Source: a virus. From it: a stretch of DNA of 32,670 nucleotides. The stretch lies in UHGV virus genome UHGV-0203498, one strand, 5' to 3'. The notes below the pieces were generated by a model. The model did not search any database and was not told the DNA's origin. It saw nothing but the letters and a program-made list of their open reading frames with translations. Positions 2,127-32,670 of the stretch are shown here, piece after piece. Position 1 is the first letter of the stretch. Every line of letters begins with the position of its first letter. A program made the translations under genes and the position numbers.

Positions 2127-2289
2127 CTTATGCAGTCTCAGACGAGGGGGGTGCCAGACCCCCCGTCTAGTCTGAAAGACTGGGGTGCTGTCCCGCTGTC
2201 CCGATCGGCTGAAACCCGCGGCAGCACTGCGGGGGACGGGGTGCTGTCCCGCTTTGTCCCGCCCCTGGTCTGTCCCGCTTTTTGTCCCG
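2127..2289. repeat. Copy A of a ~163-bp structured repeat element (imperfect long palindrome followed by a GTCCCGC heptamer array)
   Basis: 2128-2203 is identical to 18923-18999 and 2233-2289 is identical to 19027-19083; a ~29-nt variable segment separates the two identical arms. Contains the near-palindrome CAGTCTCAGACGAGGGGGGTGCCAGACCCCCCGTCTAGTCTGAAAGACTG. Confidence 0.85.
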
Positions 2290-2447
2290 TTTGTTTTATG
2301 TAGTAAAACTGAATAGGTATGCACTTTTTCAGGGGGTGCCGTAGCGGGACGTCCCGCTTGTCCCGCTTTTAGTTTATGCAATAAAAGTAAATAGGTATGC
2401 AGTTTTCGAGGGGCGGGACAAAACGGGACGTCCCGCTTGTCCCGCTT
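2290..2447. repeat. Two tandem ~79-bp units (TTTATGCAATAAAA...AGGGGG...GGGACGTCCCGCTTGTCCCGC)
   Basis: Units begin at 2295 and 2374 with TTTATG(C/T)A(A/G)TAAAA and end with GGGACGTCCCGCTTGTCCCGC. Perfect 10-bp palindromes GGGACGTCCC lie at 2346-2355 and 2425-2434. Confidence 0.8.
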
Positions 2448-8644: not shown

Positions 8645-8674
8645 TTGCAATCTGGGTGTTGGTTGCACTATATT
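8645..8674 (+). promoter_or_regulatory. Putative sigma70-like promoter for the DnaN-like moron (TTGCAA-N18-TATATT), overlapping TTGGTTGCAC motifs
   Basis: TTGCAA at 8645-8650 and TATATT at 8669-8674; TTGGTTGCAC copies at 8659-8668 and 8673-8682; palindrome TTGGT-N5-ACCAA at 8673-8687 just before the RBS. Confidence 0.4.
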
Positions 8675-8703
8675 GGTTGCACACCAACAACGAGGAAATG
8701 AAA

Positions 8704-14223: not shown

Positions 14224-14353
14224 GATATAAGCCCTTTTATGCATATGCGCCGACCATCGGCAACATAGGAGACGGCCCTGCCATCTAAGGGGGATTATAA
14301 CAGGCACAAAAAAGCCCACCAAATCGGCAGGCTGGGAGGCTTACGGGTTGCCG

Positions 14354-15649: not shown

Positions 15650-15685
15650 TTGGTTGCAGTATGGTCTCTATGTTGGTTGCAAGTC
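15650..15685 (+). promoter_or_regulatory. ATTGGTTGCA motif pair
   Basis: GATTGGTTGCAG and TGTTGGTTGCAA lie 24 bp apart, immediately beside the 15691-15716 hairpin. Confidence 0.45.
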
Positions 15686-15690
15686 AAGCA

Positions 15691-15716
15691 ATAAAAAGCC
15701 CGGATAATTCCGGGCT
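15691..15716 (-). terminator. Intrinsic terminator downstream of the endolysin-distal small gene
   Basis: Perfect 8-bp stem AGCCCGGA / TCCGGGCT with loop TAAT; on the minus strand it is followed by UUUUAU. Confidence 0.5.
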
Positions 15717-18732: not shown

Positions 18733-18776
18733 TGCAACCAATATAACAGGGTGCCAGGGTGACTGCAACCAATATT
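18733..18776 (-). promoter_or_regulatory. ATTGGTTGCA motif pair with overlapping promoter-like hexamers upstream of gene 18711
   Basis: On the minus strand: ATATTGGTTGCAGTCACCCTGGCACCCTGTTATATTGGTTGCACACCAACAGGAGG. Confidence 0.45.
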
Positions 18777-18921: not shown

Positions 18922-19083
18922 TTTATGCAGTCTCAGACGAGGGGGGTGCCAGACCCCCCGTCTAGTCTGAAAGACTGGGGTGCTGTCCCGCTGTCCCGCT
19001 CCTCTGGAAGCCGCGTCATCCGTGGGCGGGACGGGGTGCTGTCCCGCTTTGTCCCGCCCCTGGTCTGTCCCGCTTTTTGTCCC
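18922..19083. repeat. Copy B of the ~163-bp structured repeat element
   Basis: 18923-18999 is identical to 2128-2203 and 19027-19083 is identical to 2233-2289, in the same orientation, 16.8 kb from copy A. Confidence 0.85.
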
Positions 19084-19132
19084 GCTTACTTTATGCAATA
19101 AAAATGCATAATTATTCACTATATTCACACTA

Positions 19133-21889: not shown

Positions 21890-21979
21890 TACTTTGGTTA
21901 TTGAAACGGGCGCGCACGCGTGTAATAATAATTCCGTCTCATTGTCTCTTATTGGTTAGCGCCGTCGCATTTTGCCTTG

Positions 21980-22033
21980 GCGCTTTTTTTTTGAAATTAG
22001 TTGTTGACACCCCACATGCAACCAATCTAATAT
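21980..22033 (+). promoter_or_regulatory. Putative strong sigma70 promoter with upstream T-tract (UP-like element) for the plus-strand early operon
   Basis: TTGACA at 22004-22009, 18-nt spacer, TAATAT at 22028-22033; T9 tract at 21984-21992; the spacer contains GCAACCAAT. Confidence 0.5.
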
Positions 22034-24678: not shown

Positions 24679-24913
24679 AGTATTCGCAGTCTTATTGATG
24701 TTTTTGCTAGGCGCGCTGGGATTTATCTTGCATTGCGTGCAAGGCGTGTTAATGGTGGCCTGGATGATTCGCCATCCAACCCAATGGCTGGACAATGGGT
24801 ATAGCGAAGCTGCCGTCGACTGGGTGGAGAAGAACATTGACCGCCCGCCGTTAAGCTGGATCGAGAACGCCACCAACTACGTGACACGAAATCTTTTTAA
24901 TGAAAATGCTTGA
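24671..24913 (+). CDS. Hypothetical small membrane protein
   Basis: N-terminal hydrophobic segments VFAVLLMFLLGALGFILH and VLMVAWMI; overlaps the upstream gene by 8 nt. Confidence 0.4.
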   Translation: MNKVFAVLLMFLLGALGFILHCVQGVLMVAWMIRHPTQWLDNGYSEAAVDWVEKNIDRPPLSWIENATNYVTRNLFNENA

Positions 24914-24923
24914 CCGCTCAGAC

Positions 24924-24950
24924 GCAACCAAGTAGATTAGCAACCAAGCC
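24924..24950 (-). promoter_or_regulatory. TTGGTTGC motif pair (variant) upstream of the SSB gene
   Basis: Plus-strand GCAACCAAG at 24926-24934 and again 16 bp later. Confidence 0.35.
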
Positions 24951-28316: not shown

Positions 28317-28649
28317 ATGAAAAAAGTAAAAGTAGACGTTTATAGATACGAGTTTTTCGTCTCGCCGTGCGCCGACGAGGTGGCGGCAAAATGCAAGCGG
28401 ATAACAGGGTATCAACCTGATAGCGACGATTTTAGCGCTAATGCCTTCGTCGTTTTTGGTAAAGGGACGTGCCTGGTCTGGATGCCCCCAACGGCAAGTA
28501 TTAACACGGTGGCACATGAGGCCACACACGTAGCGATGAATCTCATGCGGGACTGCGGTATTGCGCCTGACCTCCATAACCAGGAGGTTATGGCGTATTT
28601 AATCGGGTATATCGTCGGCGAGATAAACCGGGCAAGGAACGCACAATGA
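28317..28649 (+). CDS. Small HExxH-motif protein (putative zinc metallopeptidase-like)
   Basis: ATG at 28317 preceded by AGGAAG; motif VAHEATHVAMNL; about 110 aa. Confidence 0.5.
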   Translation: MKKVKVDVYRYEFFVSPCADEVAAKCKRITGYQPDSDDFSANAFVVFGKGTCLVWMPPTASINTVAHEATHVAMNLMRDCGIAPDLHNQEVMAYLIGYIVGEINRARNAQ

Positions 28650-28924
28650 CCCCAGAAGGCAAGATTCAAAGCTACCTGATGCGTCGGGTGAAAGCGGTGG
28701 GTGGATTCTGCCGCAAAGTGGCCTGGGAGGGGCGCGCAGGTGCGCCCGACCTGATTATCATCATCAACGGCATCATTGTATTCGTCGAAGTGAAGCGCCC
28801 AGGGGGAAAACCGAAGCCGCACCAGGTGCGAGAGCATGCGCGGATGGCCCGCCGCGGTGCTGACGTTCGCGTCATTGACAACATAGCCGACTGTGATTTA
28901 TTGGTTGCTGAATTGGTCGCATAG
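28646..28924 (+). CDS. VRR-NUC domain nuclease
   Basis: GAPDLIII...VFVEVKRPGGKPKPHQ matches the PD-(D/E)xK core of VRR-NUC domains; start coupled to the upstream stop (ATGA). Confidence 0.8.
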   Translation: MTPEGKIQSYLMRRVKAVGGFCRKVAWEGRAGAPDLIIIINGIIVFVEVKRPGGKPKPHQVREHARMARRGADVRVIDNIADCDLLVAELVA

Positions 28925-28953
28925 CGGTATAGTGTGCCGGTTAGGAGGATTTT

Positions 28954-29169: not shown

Positions 29170-30606
29170 ATGAGTAAAAAGATGGCACGATTCCGACGCC
29201 GCGAATATCAGAAATTGATAACTGCGTTTATCCTCAAACATGAGCGCTGCAATATATGGGCGACAATGGGATCCGGCAAAACCGGCGCGACTATGTGGGC
29301 GCTGAACAAAATGTTCCAGACCGGTATCCTGTCCAGCCAGAAGGACCGCGTACTGGTGCTGGCCCCACTGCGTGTTGCATCCGGCACCTGGCCACCGGAG
29401 CAAGAAAAATGGCGATTCCCCGCACTGCTGGTCGTAGACGGCACCGGACCGGAGAAGGACCGCATTGCAGCGCTGGAGAGCGACGCTAACGTCGTTTGTG
29501 TCAATTATGATGTAGTTGAGTGGCTTGTCGAGTATTGCGGCGACGAGTGGCCCTTTACGGTCGTTGTTGCCGATGAATCCACTAAGCTGAAAGGCTACCG
29601 CAGCAAGCAGGGCAGTAAGCGCGCCCGCGCACTGGCGGCGATTGCGCATAAGCACGTCAAGCGCTGGATTAACCTTACAGGCACACCAGCCCCAAACGGA
29701 CTGAAAGATTTATGGGGGCAGACGTGGTTCGTCGACGGTGGCGAACGTCTCGGCAGCAGCTATAAGGCATTCACCGATCGCTGGTTTATTAGCAAGCCTG
29801 TTAAGCCTGGCAGCTTCACGATGCAGCACGCTCCGTTAAAGAACTCCGAGAAAGAAATACAACAACGTCTGTCAGACGTATCCCTAACCGTTGACGCGGC
29901 TGAATATTTCGGATGCGACAAGCCAATCTATACTCCGGTTATTGTGGACCTGCCGAAGAAAGCCCGCAAGATTTACGACCAGTTTGAGGACGAACTATTC
30001 GCCGAACTGGAAAGCGGAACGGTAGAGGCGGCAAACGCCGCAGCGAAAACCGTTAAGTGTCTCCAGCTTGCATCCGGTGCCGTATATAAGGTGGACGAAG
30101 ACGGCGAACGGACCGACGAGTGGGAGAAGATTCACGATGTCAAGCTGGACGCGCTGGAGAGTATCGTGGAGGAGTTGAACGGCGCGCCGTTGCTCGTTGC
30201 ATACCAGTACAAGCATGATCTGGCACGTCTCAAGAAGAAATTTCCGCACGGCGTTGCGATGGGTAAGGGTAAGCAGGGTATCAAGGATATGGAGGCGTGG
30301 AACAGGGGCGAGATTCCCATCATGTTCGCACACCCGGCATCCGCCGGTCATGGCCTTAACCTGCAGGACGGCGGTCATCATCTGGCTATCTTCTCTGACA
30401 CGTGGAACTATGAGCACTTTGCGCAGATTGTGGAGCGTATCGGGCCGGTCCGCCAGATGCAAGCCGGACACCCCAGACCGGTATTCGTCTACATTATCCA
30501 GGCGCGCGGGACACTGGACGAACTGGTGGCAGACCGCCGCGATAGTAAGCGCGATATCCAGGATGACTTGATGGAATACATGAAAGCTAAGAAGGGGCGC
30601 AAGTGA
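29170..30606 (+). CDS. SNF2-family (SF2) helicase
   Basis: Walker A ATMGSGKTG, Walker B VVVADESTKLK, motif III LTGTPAPNG, and C-terminal helicase motifs HPASAGHGLNLQ. Confidence 0.85.
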   Translation: MSKKMARFRRREYQKLITAFILKHERCNIWATMGSGKTGATMWALNKMFQTGILSSQKDRVLVLAPLRVASGTWPPEQEKWRFPALLVVDGTGPEKDRIAALESDANVVCVNYDVVEWLVEYCGDEWPFTVVVADESTKLKGYRSKQGSKRARALAAIAHKHVKRWINLTGTPAPNGLKDLWGQTWFVDGGERLGSSYKAFTDRWFISKPVKPGSFTMQHAPLKNSEKEIQQRLSDVSLTVDAAEYFGCDKPIYTPVIVDLPKKARKIYDQFEDELFAELESGTVEAANAAAKTVKCLQLASGAVYKVDEDGERTDEWEKIHDVKLDALESIVEELNGAPLLVAYQYKHDLARLKKKFPHGVAMGKGKQGIKDMEAWNRGEIPIMFAHPASAGHGLNLQDGGHHLAIFSDTWNYEHFAQIVERIGPVRQMQAGHPRPVFVYIIQARGTLDELVADRRDSKRDIQDDLMEYMKAKKGRK

Positions 30607-31313
30607 CTATTGCAAAAATGACTATCTGGTCGTTGTTTGACGGCAGCGGCTTGATGATCGAGCGTGCTGCCGAAATGGGGCACAAATGCTACTGTTTCAA
30701 CTACTCCGAAGCCGACCACGGGTCTTACCTGGACTACCGTATTTACGGTCGCGGTATCCGATACCGTAATGAGTTTATCGATCTGGACTTCGTGGATCGC
30801 GCGATTAATGGCGATTTTGGTACGCCAGACATCATCTACGCTTTCCCGCCGTGTACGGATCTGGCGGTTAGCGGCGCGCCAGCGTTCCTGCGTAAGCGTG
30901 CTAAAGACCCAGCCTTCCAGCTTAAGGCCGTGCGCACCGCGAAGATCGCCGCTTACCTGGGTGACTTCTTCGAAGTGCCATATATGATTGAGAATCCGCG
31001 CAGTGTGCTTTCCACCCAGTGGCGCAAGCCGGATCACTCGTTTGACCCGTGGGAGTATGGTGGCTATCTGCCGGAGGGTGACGTACATCCGTTGTTCCCT
31101 GAATACATCAACGCCCGTGACGCATATCCGAAGCTGACCTGCTTATGGACCGGCAACGGCTTTCGAATGCCGGAGAAAAAGCCTGTATTCGTTGAAAAAG
31201 GGTACTCGAAGCAGTATAGTCGCCTCGGTGGCAAATCTGCCCGCACCAAATTAATCCGGTCGCTCACTCCGCGCGGCTTTGCAATAGCGGTCAATGAGGA
31301 AAATTTAAAATGA
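30603..31313 (+). CDS. Compact C5-cytosine methyltransferase-like protein (236 aa)
   Basis: Motif I-like SLFDGSGLM, motif IV-like AFPPCTDLAVSG (Pro-Cys catalytic dipeptide), motif VI-like MIENPRSV. No obvious target-recognition domain. GTG start at 30603 overlaps the helicase stop. Confidence 0.55.
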   Translation: MTIAKMTIWSLFDGSGLMIERAAEMGHKCYCFNYSEADHGSYLDYRIYGRGIRYRNEFIDLDFVDRAINGDFGTPDIIYAFPPCTDLAVSGAPAFLRKRAKDPAFQLKAVRTAKIAAYLGDFFEVPYMIENPRSVLSTQWRKPDHSFDPWEYGGYLPEGDVHPLFPEYINARDAYPKLTCLWTGNGFRMPEKKPVFVEKGYSKQYSRLGGKSARTKLIRSLTPRGFAIAVNEENLK

Positions 31314-31627
31314 CGTTCGAAACCATCGATTTTTCGGTCGCAATGACTAACCAGTTATTCACCTACGACAGCAAAACCGGCGTCATTCGTCTGAAGTCCA
31401 CTGGCTGCAAGATTGGCAACCTCAACACTGCCGATGGGGGCACACGTATCGAATACAACGGCAAAACGCTGTCCGGCGCACGCGTGGCGTGGATTATCGA
31501 GACGGGCAATACAATCCCTCCAGGATACGCCGTTGTGTGCCGACAGCGCACGCCAGGACACTACGGCAACCGCATGAGCAACCTTTACCTGGTAGACGTC
31601 GCACGCGACCCTAACTTTTATGCGTAA
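31310..31627 (+). CDS. Hypothetical protein, possibly a degenerate HNH-like endonuclease
   Basis: VAWIIETGNTIPPGYAVVCRQRTPGHYGNRMSNLYLV loosely resembles the HNH_3-type pattern; start coupled to the upstream stop (ATGA). Confidence 0.35.
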   Translation: MTFETIDFSVAMTNQLFTYDSKTGVIRLKSTGCKIGNLNTADGGTRIEYNGKTLSGARVAWIIETGNTIPPGYAVVCRQRTPGHYGNRMSNLYLVDVARDPNFYA

Positions 31628-31661
31628 ATTGGTTGCATAATCATATTGGTTGCATTATATT
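31628..31661 (+). promoter_or_regulatory. ATTGGTTGCAT motif pair forming a sigma70-like promoter (TTGCAT-N17-TATATT)
   Basis: Motifs at 31628-31638 and 31645-31655; -35 at 31633-31638 and -10 at 31656-31661. Confidence 0.45.
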
Positions 31662-31663
31662 GA

Positions 31664-31688
31664 GGGTGTCCGGTTGGACGCCCTTTTT
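31664..31688 (+). terminator. Intrinsic terminator overlapping the predicted transcription start
   Basis: Stem GGGTGTCC / GGACGCCC (one G-U pair) with loop GGTT, followed by TTTTT. Confidence 0.5.
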
Positions 31689-31707
31689 AATACCTGGAGA
31701 CTATACG

Positions 31708-32172
31708 ATGAAAATTTTACAAGAAGAGAAAAACTACTGGGCAGCACAATGCCTGGAAGCCCGTGAGCAAGCCGAACGCGCGAATGCGCTGGCGGACACC
31801 TACCTTGCGAGCTACGAAGGCGAGGAGAAGGTGCGCAAGGAGCTAGAGGAACGCTTCGATCTGCTATTCGAATTGATGGGTATTATGCAGCGCACCGGGT
31901 ACACGACCACCGTTGCGCTAAACCGCATCACTGCAGAAGGCCTGCGCGAACACTGCAAGCGGGCCGAGGAGTACGTGCGTCCGAAAGGTCGCCAGTCTTC
32001 GGTCCCCCGGAAAGATCTGGTGCTGATAGCGTGGCGGCATACATCAAACGGTGGTTATAGTACTGATATGCGCCCATTGAGCGCCGAGGAGTCAAAGCGC
32101 GTCCAGCGCGTCATGAAAACCGGCAATAAAGTCCCTTTATACGCGATAGATCCAGGTCATGCAGAAGAGTGA
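31708..32172 (+). CDS. Hypothetical protein
   Basis: ATG at 31708 preceded by GGAG at 8-nt spacing; 154 aa, helical and charged. The ORF-track start at 31633 lies inside the promoter/terminator region and is unlikely. Confidence 0.5.
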   Translation: MKILQEEKNYWAAQCLEAREQAERANALADTYLASYEGEEKVRKELEERFDLLFELMGIMQRTGYTTTVALNRITAEGLREHCKRAEEYVRPKGRQSSVPRKDLVLIAWRHTSNGGYSTDMRPLSAEESKRVQRVMKTGNKVPLYAIDPGHAEE

Positions 32173-32670
32173 GCAAAAAGATAGCTGGCGCACGCCGCCA
32201 GCGTTATTTAAACCGCTGCGCCGGAAGTACCGATTCCGATATGACATGGCGGCAAGCGATGCCAATCACCTGCTACCGCGTTACTTCACGGCAGAGCACA
32301 GCGCACTTGAGGTGGACTGGTCAGAGTTGAAGGGGTGGAAGTGGTGCAATCCGCCGTATTCCGATCCGCTGCCGTGGGTAGAGTGTGCCGCGCACGGACG
32401 CCGGACGGTCATGCTTCTGAATCAGGATACGACCACGAAGTGGGCCAAACTGGCAAGGCAAACAGCCAACCTGATTATTTTGCTGGACTGGCGGATCCGG
32501 TTTATACACGCCGTCACCGGTAAGGTCGGGCCGAGTAACAACAAATGCCAGCAATTGATAATCTTTGAAGAAGTGCCGCCAAACGGCAGCGCACAAATCG
32601 AAATAATGAGCGAAGGTGAATTAAATGAATATCTTAGTCGTCGATCGAAGCCCTCGCCAAACACACCCAA
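32159..32670 (+). CDS. dam: Phage Dam-family DNA N6-adenine methyltransferase (3' end beyond the window)
   Basis: ATG at 32159 overlaps the upstream gene's end. Translation contains WRTPPALF, DMAASDANHLLPRYFT and the catalytic WCNPPYS motif, and stays open to the window end. Not in the ORF track because there is no stop in the window. Confidence 0.8.
   Translation, partial: MQKSEQKDSWRTPPALFKPLRRKYRFRYDMAASDANHLLPRYFTAEHSALEVDWSELKGWKWCNPPYSDPLPWVECAAHGRRTVMLLNQDTTTKWAKLARQTANLIILLDWRIRFIHAVTGKVGPSNNKCQQLIIFEEVPPNGSAQIEIMSEGELNEYLSRRSKPSPNTP

What the first reader, a model, noticed from the sequence alone, without database searches (positions are those of the whole stretch)
31628..31688. Promoter-like hexamers placed so that the predicted transcript starts inside the upstream operon's terminator
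TTGCAT-N17-TATATT (31633-31661) predicts initiation near 31668, inside the 5' arm of the terminator hairpin (31664-31688). Transcripts from the upstream operon would terminate, while transcripts starting here would lack the 5' arm and read into the 31708 gene and the Dam gene. This is an economical way to insulate the methyltransferase operon.
Basis: inference. Interest (0 to 1): 0.4.

Follow-up and report, generated by a model that had tools for sequence, protein, structure and literature searches.

The report
Phage promoter overlapping upstream operon's terminator
In this E. coli phage, an 80-base gap between two gene groups holds the stop signal for the first group and an overlapping start signal for the second; this compact layout is already known from bacterial operons, and its main added interest is a 9-base repeat in the start signal that marks nearly every predicted promoter of the phage.

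Summary
TTGCAT(31633-38)-N17-TATATT(31656-61) directly abuts a hairpin (31662-31685, -17.3 kcal/mol) followed by T5, after the stop codon of a 105-aa HNH-like gene and before a 154-aa gene and Dam. The window is a Dhillonvirus.

The hexamers alone are no better than chance: 11 comparable sites against 7.1 in shuffles. The promoter call rests on other evidence:
- **Repeated motif.** The -35 lies inside ATTGGTTGC, which occurs twice in the module. TTGGTTGC occurs 17 times in the window (1.6 expected), almost always on sigma70-like promoters and in either orientation.
- **Conservation.** In 26 distinct relatives both 9-mers are invariant, while the 6 nt between them vary freely. The key -10 bases are kept, the hairpin stays stable (one compensatory pair), and it always starts 0-3 nt after the -10.

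A start near 31668 would leave only 4 stem pairs (-5.5 kcal/mol), so these transcripts should escape termination. No start-site data exist.

This is a new member of a known kind: the interoperon terminator-promoter overlap described for tufB-secE. "Insulation" is only half right, because upstream polymerases must cross the promoter. The 9-mer looks like an operator for an unidentified regulator.

The parts
31310..31627 (+). Last gene of the upstream operon: a 105-aa HNH-like protein (Sponge gp20 homologue). Its stop codon TAA is at 31625-27.
   Evidence: ORF list. tblastn to Sponge gp20, 94% identity. phrog_99 at E = 2e-15 with no Pfam hit.
31628..31636 (+). Copy 1 of the 9-mer ATTGGTTGC. Its TTGC forms the start of the -35 hexamer.
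   Evidence: Invariant in 26 of 26 distinct relatives.
31633..31638 (+). -35 hexamer TTGCAT (3 of 6 matches to TTGACA; TTG present).
   Evidence: Sequence. Same register as the promoters at 18768(-), 22021(-) and 28905(+).
31645..31653 (+). Copy 2 of ATTGGTTGC, lying in the promoter spacer (-23 to -15). It has no usable -10 of its own.
   Evidence: Invariant in 26 of 26 relatives, while the 6 nt between the copies (31639-44) vary at almost every position.
31656..31661 (+). -10 hexamer TATATT (5 of 6 matches).
   Evidence: Variants in relatives are TATATT, TATCTT and TAACTT, with T1, A2, T5 and T6 invariant.
31667..31669 (+). Predicted transcription start (G31668 +/- 1), inside the 5' arm of the hairpin.
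   Evidence: Inference from the usual 7 (6-9) nt distance from the -10 to the start. Not mapped experimentally.
31662..31685 (+). Terminator hairpin. The core is 8 bp, GGGTGTCC/GGACGCCC (31664-71 / 31676-83), with loop GGTT. A-U and G-U pairs extend it by 2 bp.
   Evidence: -17.3 kcal/mol, z = -5.5. 97% of cells paired in 14 relatives, with one C-G to U-A compensatory pair. All variants fold at -15.9 to -19.1 kcal/mol. Annotated as a terminator in MK373790.
31684..31688 (+). T-tract of the terminator (TTTTTAAT).
   Evidence: Conserved in relatives, except one with TTTCT and L043 with TTAATTTT.
31696..31699 (+). Shine-Dalgarno GGAG, 8 nt before the ATG at 31708.
   Evidence: GGAG or AGGA is kept in all relatives.
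31708..32172 (+). First gene of the downstream operon: 154 aa, function unknown. phrog_10530 carries the label 'DNA ligase', which is unverified.
32159..32670 (+). Dam-type N6-adenine methyltransferase gene. It overlaps the previous gene by 14 nt. This reading frame stays open to the end of the window.
   Evidence: PF05869 at E = 2e-35. Translation.
28901..28933 (+). Probable promoter of the upstream operon: TTGGTTGCTG-N17-TATAGT, embedded in the last codons of the VRR-NUC gene.
18740..18773 (-). Family member: ATTGGTTGCAG-N17-TATATT, with a second 9-mer copy on the -10/+1 region.
21994..22033 (.). Overlapping divergent promoters. On the - strand, TTGGTTGCAT-N16-TAATTT points toward the gam gene. 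On the + strand, TTGACA-N18-TAATAT carries the same motif reversed in its spacer.
8645..8680 (+). Family member: TTGCAA-N18-TATATT with forward motif copies at -22..-15 and -8..-1.
24910..24947 (+). Family member: TTGACC-N17-TAGATT with two reversed motif copies, one in the spacer and one at +1.
   Evidence: Both copies are invariant in 11 relatives.
15650..15716 (-). Conventional-order junction. The lysis-operon terminator (15716 to 15690) comes first, followed by TTGACT-N18-CATACT with two reversed motif copies.

Best explanation
The 80-bp gap between the HNH-like gene and the 154-aa gene is a compact terminator-promoter junction in a Dhillonvirus genome.

1. An intrinsic terminator (hairpin 31662-85 plus T5) ends transcripts of the upstream operon. 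That operon probably starts at the promoter at 28905 and covers a Lar-like gene, a helicase, a Dcm-like methylase and the HNH-like gene.
2. A host-sigma70-type promoter lies immediately after the stop codon and directly against the hairpin: -35 TTGCAT at 31633, -10 TATATT at 31656. Initiation about 7 nt after the -10 (around G31668) gives an RNA that lacks the first half of the 5' arm. It can form only a 4-bp stem and reads on into the 154-aa gene, Dam and the genes beyond.
3. The promoter belongs to a phage-wide family marked by the 9-mer ATTGGTTGC. One copy supplies the weak -35 and a second, equally invariant copy sits in the spacer. The motif lies on the -35, the spacer or the +1 region of about nine predicted promoters, in either orientation. 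It is therefore most likely the binding site of an unidentified regulator, probably phage-encoded, that times these promoters.
4. Upstream polymerases must traverse the promoter before terminating. The junction therefore separates the two transcripts but also lets upstream traffic dampen the downstream promoter.

Shown: the sequence anatomy, motif enrichment, conservation and fold energies. Inferred: promoter activity, start-site position, escape from termination, regulator binding and occlusion.
For: **Anatomy and terminator**
- Anatomy read directly from the sequence.
- Hairpin at -17.3 kcal/mol, z = -5.5.
- The same element is annotated as a terminator in phage WF5505.

**Conservation in relatives**
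- 26 distinct versions from IMG/VR and protein-anchored metagenome loci were compared.
- Both 9-mers are invariant, and the inter-repeat 6-mer varies at nearly every position.
- T1, A2, T5 and T6 of the -10 are invariant.
- Spacer length is 17 bp in 25 versions and 16 bp in one.
- The hairpin starts 0-3 nt after the -10 in every version. This includes L043, whose HNH-like protein is only 55% identical and whose stem sequence differs.
- 97% of stem cells are paired, with one C-G to U-A compensatory pair in 3 sequences.

**Escape from termination**
- Transcripts starting 6-9 nt after the -10 fold at only -1.3 to -5.5 kcal/mol in the window.

**Promoter family**
- TTGGTTGC occurs 17 times against 1.6 expected.
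- It occurs 21 times in the complete Sponge genome against 1.3 expected, and 15 of those lie in the 6.8% of the genome that is intergenic.
- ATTGGTTGC is the most frequent 9-mer in the window.
- TTGGTTGC-N18-20-TAnnnT occurs 4 times against 0.02 expected.
- Motif positions relative to the -10 fall into recurring slots: -39..-32, -22..-15 and -8..-1.

**Precedent**
- Terminator-promoter overlap with promoter exclusion at tufB-secE and three other operon pairs (PMC6735719).
Against: - No experimental start site or transcriptome exists for any Dhillonvirus in the searchable literature.
- The -35 matches consensus at only 3 of 6 positions. The consensus scan did not flag the site, and hexamer-level matches are not enriched over shuffles.
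- The hairpin forces a G+C-rich discriminator and initial transcribed region (GAGGGTG) on the promoter, which may weaken it or make it activator-dependent.
- An alternative register, TTGGTT-N18-CATTAT, would start near 31665 and keep 7 of the 8 core stem pairs.
- All relatives belong to one genus (80-95% DNA identity), so part of the conservation is simply shared descent.
- Covariation support is modest: one double-sided pair.
- No candidate regulator was found among the small ORFs.
Confidence: 0.6

Rival explanations
1. There is no autonomous promoter here. The hairpin is a partial terminator, and the downstream genes are expressed by read-through from the upstream operon. The two ATTGGTTGC copies are protein-binding sites with some other role (roadblock, anti-termination loading, DNA-level function), and the TATATT is incidental.
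For: - The -35 is weak, at 3 of 6 matches.
- Hexamer matches of this quality are not above chance.
- The motif occurs in both orientations, so it is not simply a -35 element.
- The terminator has only five T's.
Against: - The critical -10 positions (A2, T6) and the 17-bp spacing are kept in all 26 variants, although neighbouring bases vary.
- The same motif-N17-TATAnT geometry recurs at three other gene starts.
- The module always sits directly upstream of a Shine-Dalgarno sequence and ATG, even when a different gene has been inserted there.
Confidence: 0.17
2. The element is a leader attenuator. Transcription starts at or before the base of the hairpin, for example from the alternative register TTGGTT-N18-CATTAT with a start near 31665. 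The promoter's own transcripts would then carry the terminator and be attenuated unless an antiterminator acts. In my recollection, the frd terminator serves as the ampC attenuator in the same way.
For: - The alternative register exists in the window.
- A start at 31665 would keep 7 of the 8 core pairs.
- At two other junctions in relatives (L054 14542-, L043 4359+) a G+C-rich hairpin lies wholly inside the predicted leader.
Against: - The alternative -10 is not conserved: it reads CCTTAT in L015 and CGGTAA in L043. It is also absent at the sister promoters at 18768 and 28905.
- A start 1-3 nt after TATATT is not compatible with sigma70 geometry.
- No alternative antiterminator structure stands out in the fold of 31620-31715.
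- The leader hairpins at the other junctions lack U-tracts, so they are a different device.
Confidence: 0.1
3. The juxtaposition is a chance by-product of genome compaction. Promoter and terminator are both real, but their overlap carries no function. Transcripts escape termination simply because the elements happen to be adjacent.
For: - The phage genome is only 6.8% intergenic.
- It contains other tight junctions in the conventional order, at 15716-15640(-) and 14340-14290(-).
Against: - The 0-3 nt gap between the -10 and the hairpin is kept even where the stem sequence, loop length and -10 sequence have all changed (L043, L013, L001).
- Any insertion of about 6 nt or more would make the promoter self-terminating, so the spacing is under at least that constraint.
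Confidence: 0.1

Closest known systems
[quoted passage not shown]
   Same: - The terminator of one operon shares DNA with the promoter of the next.
- The promoter begins a few nucleotides after the upstream stop codon: 13 nt in tufB-secE and 1-5 nt here.
- The arrangement is conserved among relatives.
- My own reading of the E. coli sequence: TTGACG lies 13 nt after the tufB stop, followed by the hairpin GGGCATC-ATTT-GATGCCC plus T5. There too, the new transcript would lack the 5' arm.
   Different: - This case is a phage early or middle region, not ribosomal or translation operons.
- Here the -10 lies just outside the stem, whereas in tufB-secE (my reading) it lies inside.
- The promoter here also carries two copies of a genome-wide 9-mer.
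- Coupling by promoter exclusion was shown experimentally for tufB-secE. It is only inferred here.
Canonical Rho-independent (intrinsic) terminators of E. coli and its phages
   Same: G+C-rich stem of 8-10 bp, a 4-nt loop and a run of 5 T's directly after the stem. It lies 37 nt downstream of a stop codon and on the same strand as the operon.
   Different: Its 5' arm doubles as the discriminator and initial transcribed region of a promoter.
Phage promoter families with a conserved factor-binding box at or near -35: T4 middle promoters (MotA box) and lambda PRE/PI/PaQ (CII sites TTGC-N6-TTGC). These are cited from my own knowledge.
   Same: A weak -35 is replaced or overlaid by a conserved short box that recurs at many promoters of the phage, combined with a good sigma70 -10. 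The motif contains TTGC, as CII half-sites do.
   Different: - The sequence and spacing fit neither box. The MotA box is (a/t)(a/t)TGCTT(t/c)A centred at -30. CII half-sites are 10 bp apart, whereas these 9-mers are 14-35 bp apart.
- The motif also occurs reversed in spacers and at +1 of promoters that have good -35 hexamers.
- No MotA, AsiA or CII homologue was detected.
ampC-frd overlap in E. coli, where the frd terminator serves as the ampC attenuator (from my own knowledge)
   Same: A promoter lies upstream of the terminator of the preceding operon.
   Different: In ampC-frd the start site lies upstream of the whole hairpin, so the terminator attenuates the new transcript. Here the -10 abuts the stem, so the start is predicted inside it.

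Membership tests
Intrinsic (Rho-independent) terminator | G+C-rich stem-loop (5-14 bp stem, 3-8 nt loop) with stability well above background | tested here: met
   8 bp core plus 2 bp extension, loop GGTT, -17.3 kcal/mol, z = -5.5, 0 of 200 shuffles as stable.
Intrinsic (Rho-independent) terminator | U-tract directly after the stem | tested here: met
   TTTTTAAT at 31684-91, conserved in 24 of 26 variants. The consensus scan did not list it; my inference is that the extended stem takes up two T's.
Intrinsic (Rho-independent) terminator | Structure maintained in relatives through compensatory change | tested here: met
   97% of cells paired. One pair changes C-G to U-A in 3 sequences, and there are several G-U intermediates. 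All stem variants fold at -15.9 to -19.1 kcal/mol. Support is modest because the sequences are closely related.
Intrinsic (Rho-independent) terminator | RNA 3' ends form at the U-tract | not testable with these tools
   Needs Term-seq, 3' RACE or in vitro transcription.
Sigma70-dependent promoter | -10 hexamer close to TATAAT with A at position 2 and T at position 6 | tested here: met
   TATATT, 5 of 6 matches. A2 and T6 are invariant in 26 variants.
Sigma70-dependent promoter | -35 hexamer close to TTGACA at 16-18 bp | tested here: inconclusive
   TTGCAT matches at 3 of 6 positions (TTG present) with a 17-bp spacer. This is below the scan threshold, and sites of this quality are not enriched over shuffles. 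The same TTGCnn register recurs at 18768, 22021 and 28905.
Sigma70-dependent promoter | Mapped primary 5' end 6-9 nt downstream of the -10 | not testable with these tools
   No Dhillonvirus start-site data found.
Interoperon terminator-promoter overlap (operon concatenation) | Promoter elements and the upstream operon's terminator share or abut the same DNA between two co-oriented operons | tested here: met
   The -10 ends at 31661 and the extended stem begins at 31662. The predicted start at 31668 lies in the 5' arm.
Interoperon terminator-promoter overlap (operon concatenation) | The arrangement is conserved among relatives | tested here: met
   The gap between the -10 and the hairpin is 0-3 nt in 26 of 26 distinct variants.
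Interoperon terminator-promoter overlap (operon concatenation) | Upstream transcription modulates the downstream promoter | not testable with these tools
   Shown for tufB-secE. Here it is only inferred from the geometry.
Leader attenuator | The start site lies upstream of the complete terminator hairpin | tested here: not met
   The -10 abuts the stem, so a sigma70 start 6-9 nt downstream falls inside the 5' arm. The alternative register is not conserved.
Leader attenuator | A competing antiterminator structure or factor site | tested here: not met
   No competing structure of note in the fold of 31620-31715. No Rfam family matched.
Operator sites of a transcription regulator | A short motif strongly over-represented and concentrated on core promoter elements | tested here: met
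   17 copies against 1.6 expected. 15 of 21 copies in Sponge lie in the 6.8% intergenic DNA. Copies sit at -39..-32, -22..-15, -8..-1 or +1 of about nine predicted promoters, in both orientations.
Operator sites of a transcription regulator | The motif is conserved beyond what promoter function requires | tested here: met
   The spacer copy (31645-53) is invariant in 26 of 26 variants, while the adjacent 6 nt vary freely. The reversed copies at the 24910 promoter are invariant in 11 relatives.
Operator sites of a transcription regulator | An identified cognate DNA-binding protein | tested here: not met
   No regulator family was detected among the small ORFs. No PDB sequence relatives for the HNH-like or the 154-aa protein. 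Binding itself cannot be tested here.
Lambda CII-type activator site | TTGC-N6-TTGC direct repeat straddling the -35 | tested here: not met
   The motif is TTGGTTGC. The TTGC units in the module are 17 bp apart.
T4 MotA-dependent middle promoter | MotA box (a/t)(a/t)TGCTT(t/c)A centred at -30 | tested here: not met
   No such box in the sequence, and no MotA or AsiA family hit.

The most novel reading that the evidence does not exclude
ATTGGTTGC is the operator of a so far unrecognised global transcription regulator of Dhillonviruses, and this one factor switches the whole programme. It would activate promoters where the motif replaces a poor -35 (TTGCnn: 18768-, 22021-, 28905+, 31633+). It would repress promoters with good -35 hexamers where the motif lies reversed in the spacer or on +1 (22004+, 24910+, 15687-).

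The junction studied here would then be a two-site, factor-dependent promoter laid over the preceding terminator, so that the Dam operon is expressed only when the factor is present, whatever the upstream traffic. A long shot is that the factor is the universally conserved, Pfam-negative 'HNH-like' protein encoded immediately upstream.
Probability: 0.2. Interest if true: 0.6.

Novelty: new member of a known kind. Interest (0 to 1): 0.33.

Why it matters
If the start site is confirmed, this is a clean, small natural example of a terminator and a promoter sharing the same 30 bp. The geometry alone decides which transcripts stop and which continue. That is useful as a compact insulating part for synthetic biology, and it is a phage counterpart to the operon concatenation described in enterobacterial chromosomes.

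The more useful lead is the 9-mer ATTGGTTGC. It marks essentially all predicted promoters of a large genus of E. coli phages (about 160 sequenced genomes, some in therapeutic and BASEL-type collections) whose transcription programme has not been studied. It also gives a direct handle, by oligonucleotide pull-down, for finding their regulator.

Tried and rejected
- **Sigma54 reading of the motif.** The GG and GC elements are not 10-12 bp apart in any pair of copies.
- **Lambda CII-type and T4 MotA-type boxes.** Sequence and spacing do not fit.
- **PdhR/LldR-like palindrome.** TTGGT-N5-ACCAA is present only at 8673 and 18734, the spacing is wrong, and it is absent from the module.
- **Copy 2 as the -35 of a second promoter.** No -10-like hexamer lies 16-18 bp downstream.
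- **Alternative register TTGGTT-N18-CATTAT.** It is not conserved in relatives or at the sister promoters.
- **A - strand promoter.** There is a perfect TATAAT at 31659-31654, but no -35 and no TG extension.
- **Bidirectional terminator.** There is no T-run on the - strand.
- **Rfam scan of the window.** No hits.
- **Literature.** No Dhillonvirus promoter or start-site paper and no paper on the motif. Three further searches for start sites inside terminators gave one relevant precedent.
- **Search for a regulator.** PHROG and Pfam scans of 20 ORFs and PDB sequence searches found nothing.
- **More distant relatives.** A protein-anchored metagenome scan returned only the same genus.
- **Other viral contigs carrying two TTGGTTGC copies 17 bp apart.** The non-Dhillonvirus hits look unrelated or are coding repeats.

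Full report
**What the window is.** The 2 kb around the finding matches 157 phage records at 80-95% identity, nearly all E. coli phages of the genus Dhillonvirus. A more sensitive search finds the same set and nothing outside it. I mapped the proteins of phage Sponge (NC_073081) onto the window. This gives a - strand block of structural, lysis and early genes (1-21828). A + strand replication and modification block starts at about 22050. It runs through a PD-(D/E)XK nuclease, an SSB-like protein, DNA polymerase, VRR-NUC, a small Lar-like ORF, a helicase and a Dcm-like methylase (30603-31313). It continues with a 105-aa HNH-like protein (31310-31627), a 154-aa protein of unknown function (31708-32172) and Dam (from 32159; PF05869; its reading frame stays open to the window end).

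**The observation.**
- TAA stop: 31625-27.
- TTGCAT: 31633-38, followed by a 17-bp spacer.
- TATATT: 31656-61.
- Hairpin: GGGTGTCC-GGTT-GGACGCCC at 31664-83.
- T5: 31684-88.
- GGAG: 31696-99.
- ATG: 31708.

ViennaRNA extends the stem by A-U and G-U pairs to 31662-85. It gives -17.3 kcal/mol, z = -5.5, with none of 200 shuffles as stable. The consensus scanner listed neither element. The -35 has only 3 of 6 matches. The terminator was probably missed because the extended stem takes up two T's of the tail; this is my inference.

On hexamers alone the promoter is not convincing. Sites with TTG and at least 3 of 6 at -35, plus at least 5 of 6 at -10, number 11 in the window against 7.1 +/- 2.6 in dinucleotide shuffles.

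- The -35 is embedded in an 11-mer, ATTGGTTGCAT, that is repeated exactly 17 bp downstream (31628-38 and 31645-55). The second copy fills the promoter spacer and ends at the -10.
- The 8-mer core TTGGTTGC occurs 17 times in the window against 1.6 expected.
- ATTGGTTGC is the most frequent 9-mer in the window.
- In the complete Sponge genome there are 21 copies against 1.3 expected, and 15 of them lie in the 6.8% of the genome that is intergenic.

Reading each site shows that the motif sits on sigma70-like promoters in a few recurring positions.
- As the -35 (TTGGTTGCnn-N16/17-TAnnnT) at 18768(-), 22021(-), 28905(+) and 31633(+). This architecture occurs 4 times against 0.02 expected.
- In the spacer at -22..-15, at 8645(+) and 31633(+).
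- Over -8..-1, at 8645(+) and 18768(-).
- In reverse orientation in the spacer or at +1 of promoters with good -35 hexamers: 22004(+) TTGACA-N18-TAATAT, 24910(+) TTGACC-N17-TAGATT and 15687(-) TTGACT-N18-CATACT.

So the site in the finding is one member of a family of about nine predicted promoters.

**Comparative evidence.** I collected 26 distinct versions of the junction. They came from IMG/VR loci found through the downstream protein and through a DNA pattern. They also came from 13 metagenome loci anchored only on the upstream HNH-like protein, which does not presuppose the motif. In the alignment:
- both ATTGGTTGC copies are invariant in 26 of 26 versions;
- the six bases between them differ at almost every position, and one sequence has a 1-bp deletion;
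- the -10 is TATATT, TATCTT or TAACTT, with T1, A2, T5 and T6 invariant.

The hairpin is kept, with stems GGGTGTCC/GGACGCCC, GGGTGTTC/GAACGCCC, GGGTGTTCC/GGA(A/G)CGCCC and, in the most divergent phage (L043; HNH-like protein 55% identical), GGCGTTCCA/TGGAGCGCC. All of these fold at -15.9 to -19.1 kcal/mol. On a 14-sequence alignment, 97% of stem cells pair. One pair shows a double-sided C-G to U-A change in three sequences, and 9 of 500 column shuffles do as well. That is consistent with a conserved structure, but the support is modest because the sequences are close.

In every version the stem starts 0-3 nt after the -10. One GenBank record (WF5505) already annotates the element as a putative terminator. 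In about half of the relatives an extra small gene is inserted between the junction and the 154-aa gene. The junction stays attached to the HNH-like gene's stop codon and simply drives the inserted gene first.

**Mechanism.** With the -10 at 31656-61, a sigma70 start is expected 6-9 nt downstream (31667-31670, most likely G31668). RNA starting there retains at most a 4-bp stem: -5.5 kcal/mol, and -1.3 to -1.6 for starts one or two bases later. This compares with -17.3 for RNA arriving from upstream. The same holds for the variants from relatives, although some keep weak alternative stems of about -7 kcal/mol.

Transcripts from the upstream operon, probably initiated at 28905, should therefore terminate at the T-tract. 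Transcripts born at this promoter lack the 5' arm and should continue. It remains an inference, because I found no start-site or RNA-seq study of any Dhillonvirus.

An alternative register, TTGGTT-N18-CATTAT, would start near 31665 and keep most of the stem, turning the element into an attenuator. That -10 is not conserved in L015 or L043 and is absent at the sister promoters, so I give it low weight.

**Where the interpretation needs correcting.**
- The arrangement is not new in kind. [quoted passage not shown] They show for tufB-secE that a heavier polymerase load on the terminator lowers initiation at the overlapping promoter, which they call promoter exclusion.
- In the E. coli sequence I read TTGACG 13 nt after the tufB stop. 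This matches the 13-nt figure in the paper. The hairpin GGGCATC-ATTT-GATGCCC plus T5 follows, so there too the new transcript would lack the 5' arm. This reading is mine, not the paper's.
- By analogy, the phage junction does not purely insulate. Upstream polymerases must pass over the -35 and -10 before terminating.
- The invariant second 9-mer cannot be explained by sigma70 promoter function. Together with the reversed copies in the spacers of other promoters, it points to a DNA-binding regulator. The downstream operon is therefore probably regulated rather than just economically packed.
- I could not identify the regulator. PHROG and Pfam scans of 20 ORFs found no regulator family. The HNH-like and 154-aa proteins have no PDB sequence relatives.
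- The hairpin also imposes a G+C-rich discriminator on the promoter, which may make it weak or factor-dependent. This is an inference.

**Other junctions in the same genome.**
- The lysis operon ends in a strong terminator (15716-15690, - strand) that is followed by a promoter in the conventional order.
- Upstream of the small terminase gene, a TTGGTG-N17-TATAAT promoter has its -35 in the 3' arm of the preceding hairpin.
- At the junction two operons downstream (outside the window; L054 14542-, L043 4359+), the same motif and -10 are followed by a G+C-rich hairpin without a U-tract, which lies inside the predicted leader.

The phage thus uses several variants of promoter-hairpin packing. Among the junctions I examined in the window, the one in the finding is the only one where the start is predicted inside the 5' arm of a co-directional terminator.

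**Verdict.** The feature is a new, unvalidated member of a known kind of junction. Its added interest comes mainly from the genus-wide 9-mer that marks the promoters.

Noticed in passing
window 2189-2445 and 18984-19085 (also 29143, 828, 5868, 13528, 30506): A second over-represented 8-mer, TGTCCCGC, occurs 18 times against 1.5 expected. It forms two dense same-strand clusters. One follows the helicase-primase gene, next to an A+T-rich stretch and three ATTGGTTGC copies. The other lies between the tape-measure gene and two small ORFs. They look like iterons, possibly replication origins or sites for another DNA-binding protein.
   Followed up: partly
window 21901-21997 (+): A possible small RNA. 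TTGAAA-N17-AATAAT is followed about 35 nt later by the hairpin GCGCCgtcgcattttgccttGGCGC plus T9 (-13.1 kcal/mol). It would be antisense to the 5' leader of the gam/helicase-primase operon. The T9 ends 6 nt before the TTGACA of the + strand promoter at 22004.
   Followed up: partly
window 21994-22033: Two divergent promoters overlap back to back. The -35 of the - strand promoter (inside ATTGGTTGCAT) lies in the spacer of the near-consensus + strand promoter TTGACA-N18-TAATAT. Only one of them can be occupied at a time.
   Followed up: partly
window 14290-14345 (-): Another terminator-promoter overlap, in front of the small terminase gene. TTGGTG-N17-TATAAT has its -35 in the 3' arm of the hairpin that follows the phosphoesterase gene, and the T-tract lies in the spacer.
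   Followed up: partly
window 31310-31627: The gene annotated in relatives as an 'HNH homing endonuclease' is present at the same locus in every relative sampled, which is unlike a mobile homing gene. It has no Pfam hit and no PDB sequence relative. It may be a domesticated DNA-binding derivative.
   Followed up: partly
L002, L003, L005, L006, L013, L014, L054 (between the junction and the 154-aa gene homologue): About half of the relatives carry an extra gene of about 240 bp (MKSLF.../MRRFF...) inserted directly after the junction's Shine-Dalgarno sequence. The promoter-terminator module stays attached to the HNH-like gene.
   Followed up: partly
window 28895-28925: The promoter motif at 28901 and a degenerate second copy (ATTGGTCGC) are encoded within the last codons of the VRR-NUC gene. 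They give the peptide repeat LVA-E-LVA, so the coding sequence and the promoter are superimposed.
   Followed up: no
L054 14500-14560 (-) and L043 4359-4440 (+), outside the window: At the next operon junction downstream of Dam, the motif (a head-to-head inverted pair in Sponge, a direct pair in L043) and a TATCTT -10 are followed by a G+C-rich hairpin without a U-tract. It lies inside the predicted leader. It may be a 5' stabiliser or a processing site rather than a terminator.
   Followed up: partly
window 28317-28649 (+): A 110-aa ORF between DNA polymerase and VRR-NUC contains an HExxH motif (VAHEATHV). It has a weak Peptidase_M4 hit and matches phrog_1365. In Sponge no gene is annotated between DNA polymerase and VRR-NUC, whose CDSs abut.
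   Followed up: no
window 31654-31659 (- strand): The reverse complement of ATTATA is a perfect TATAAT on the - strand, but it has no -35 and no TG extension. An antisense start into the HNH-like gene cannot be excluded.
   Followed up: no
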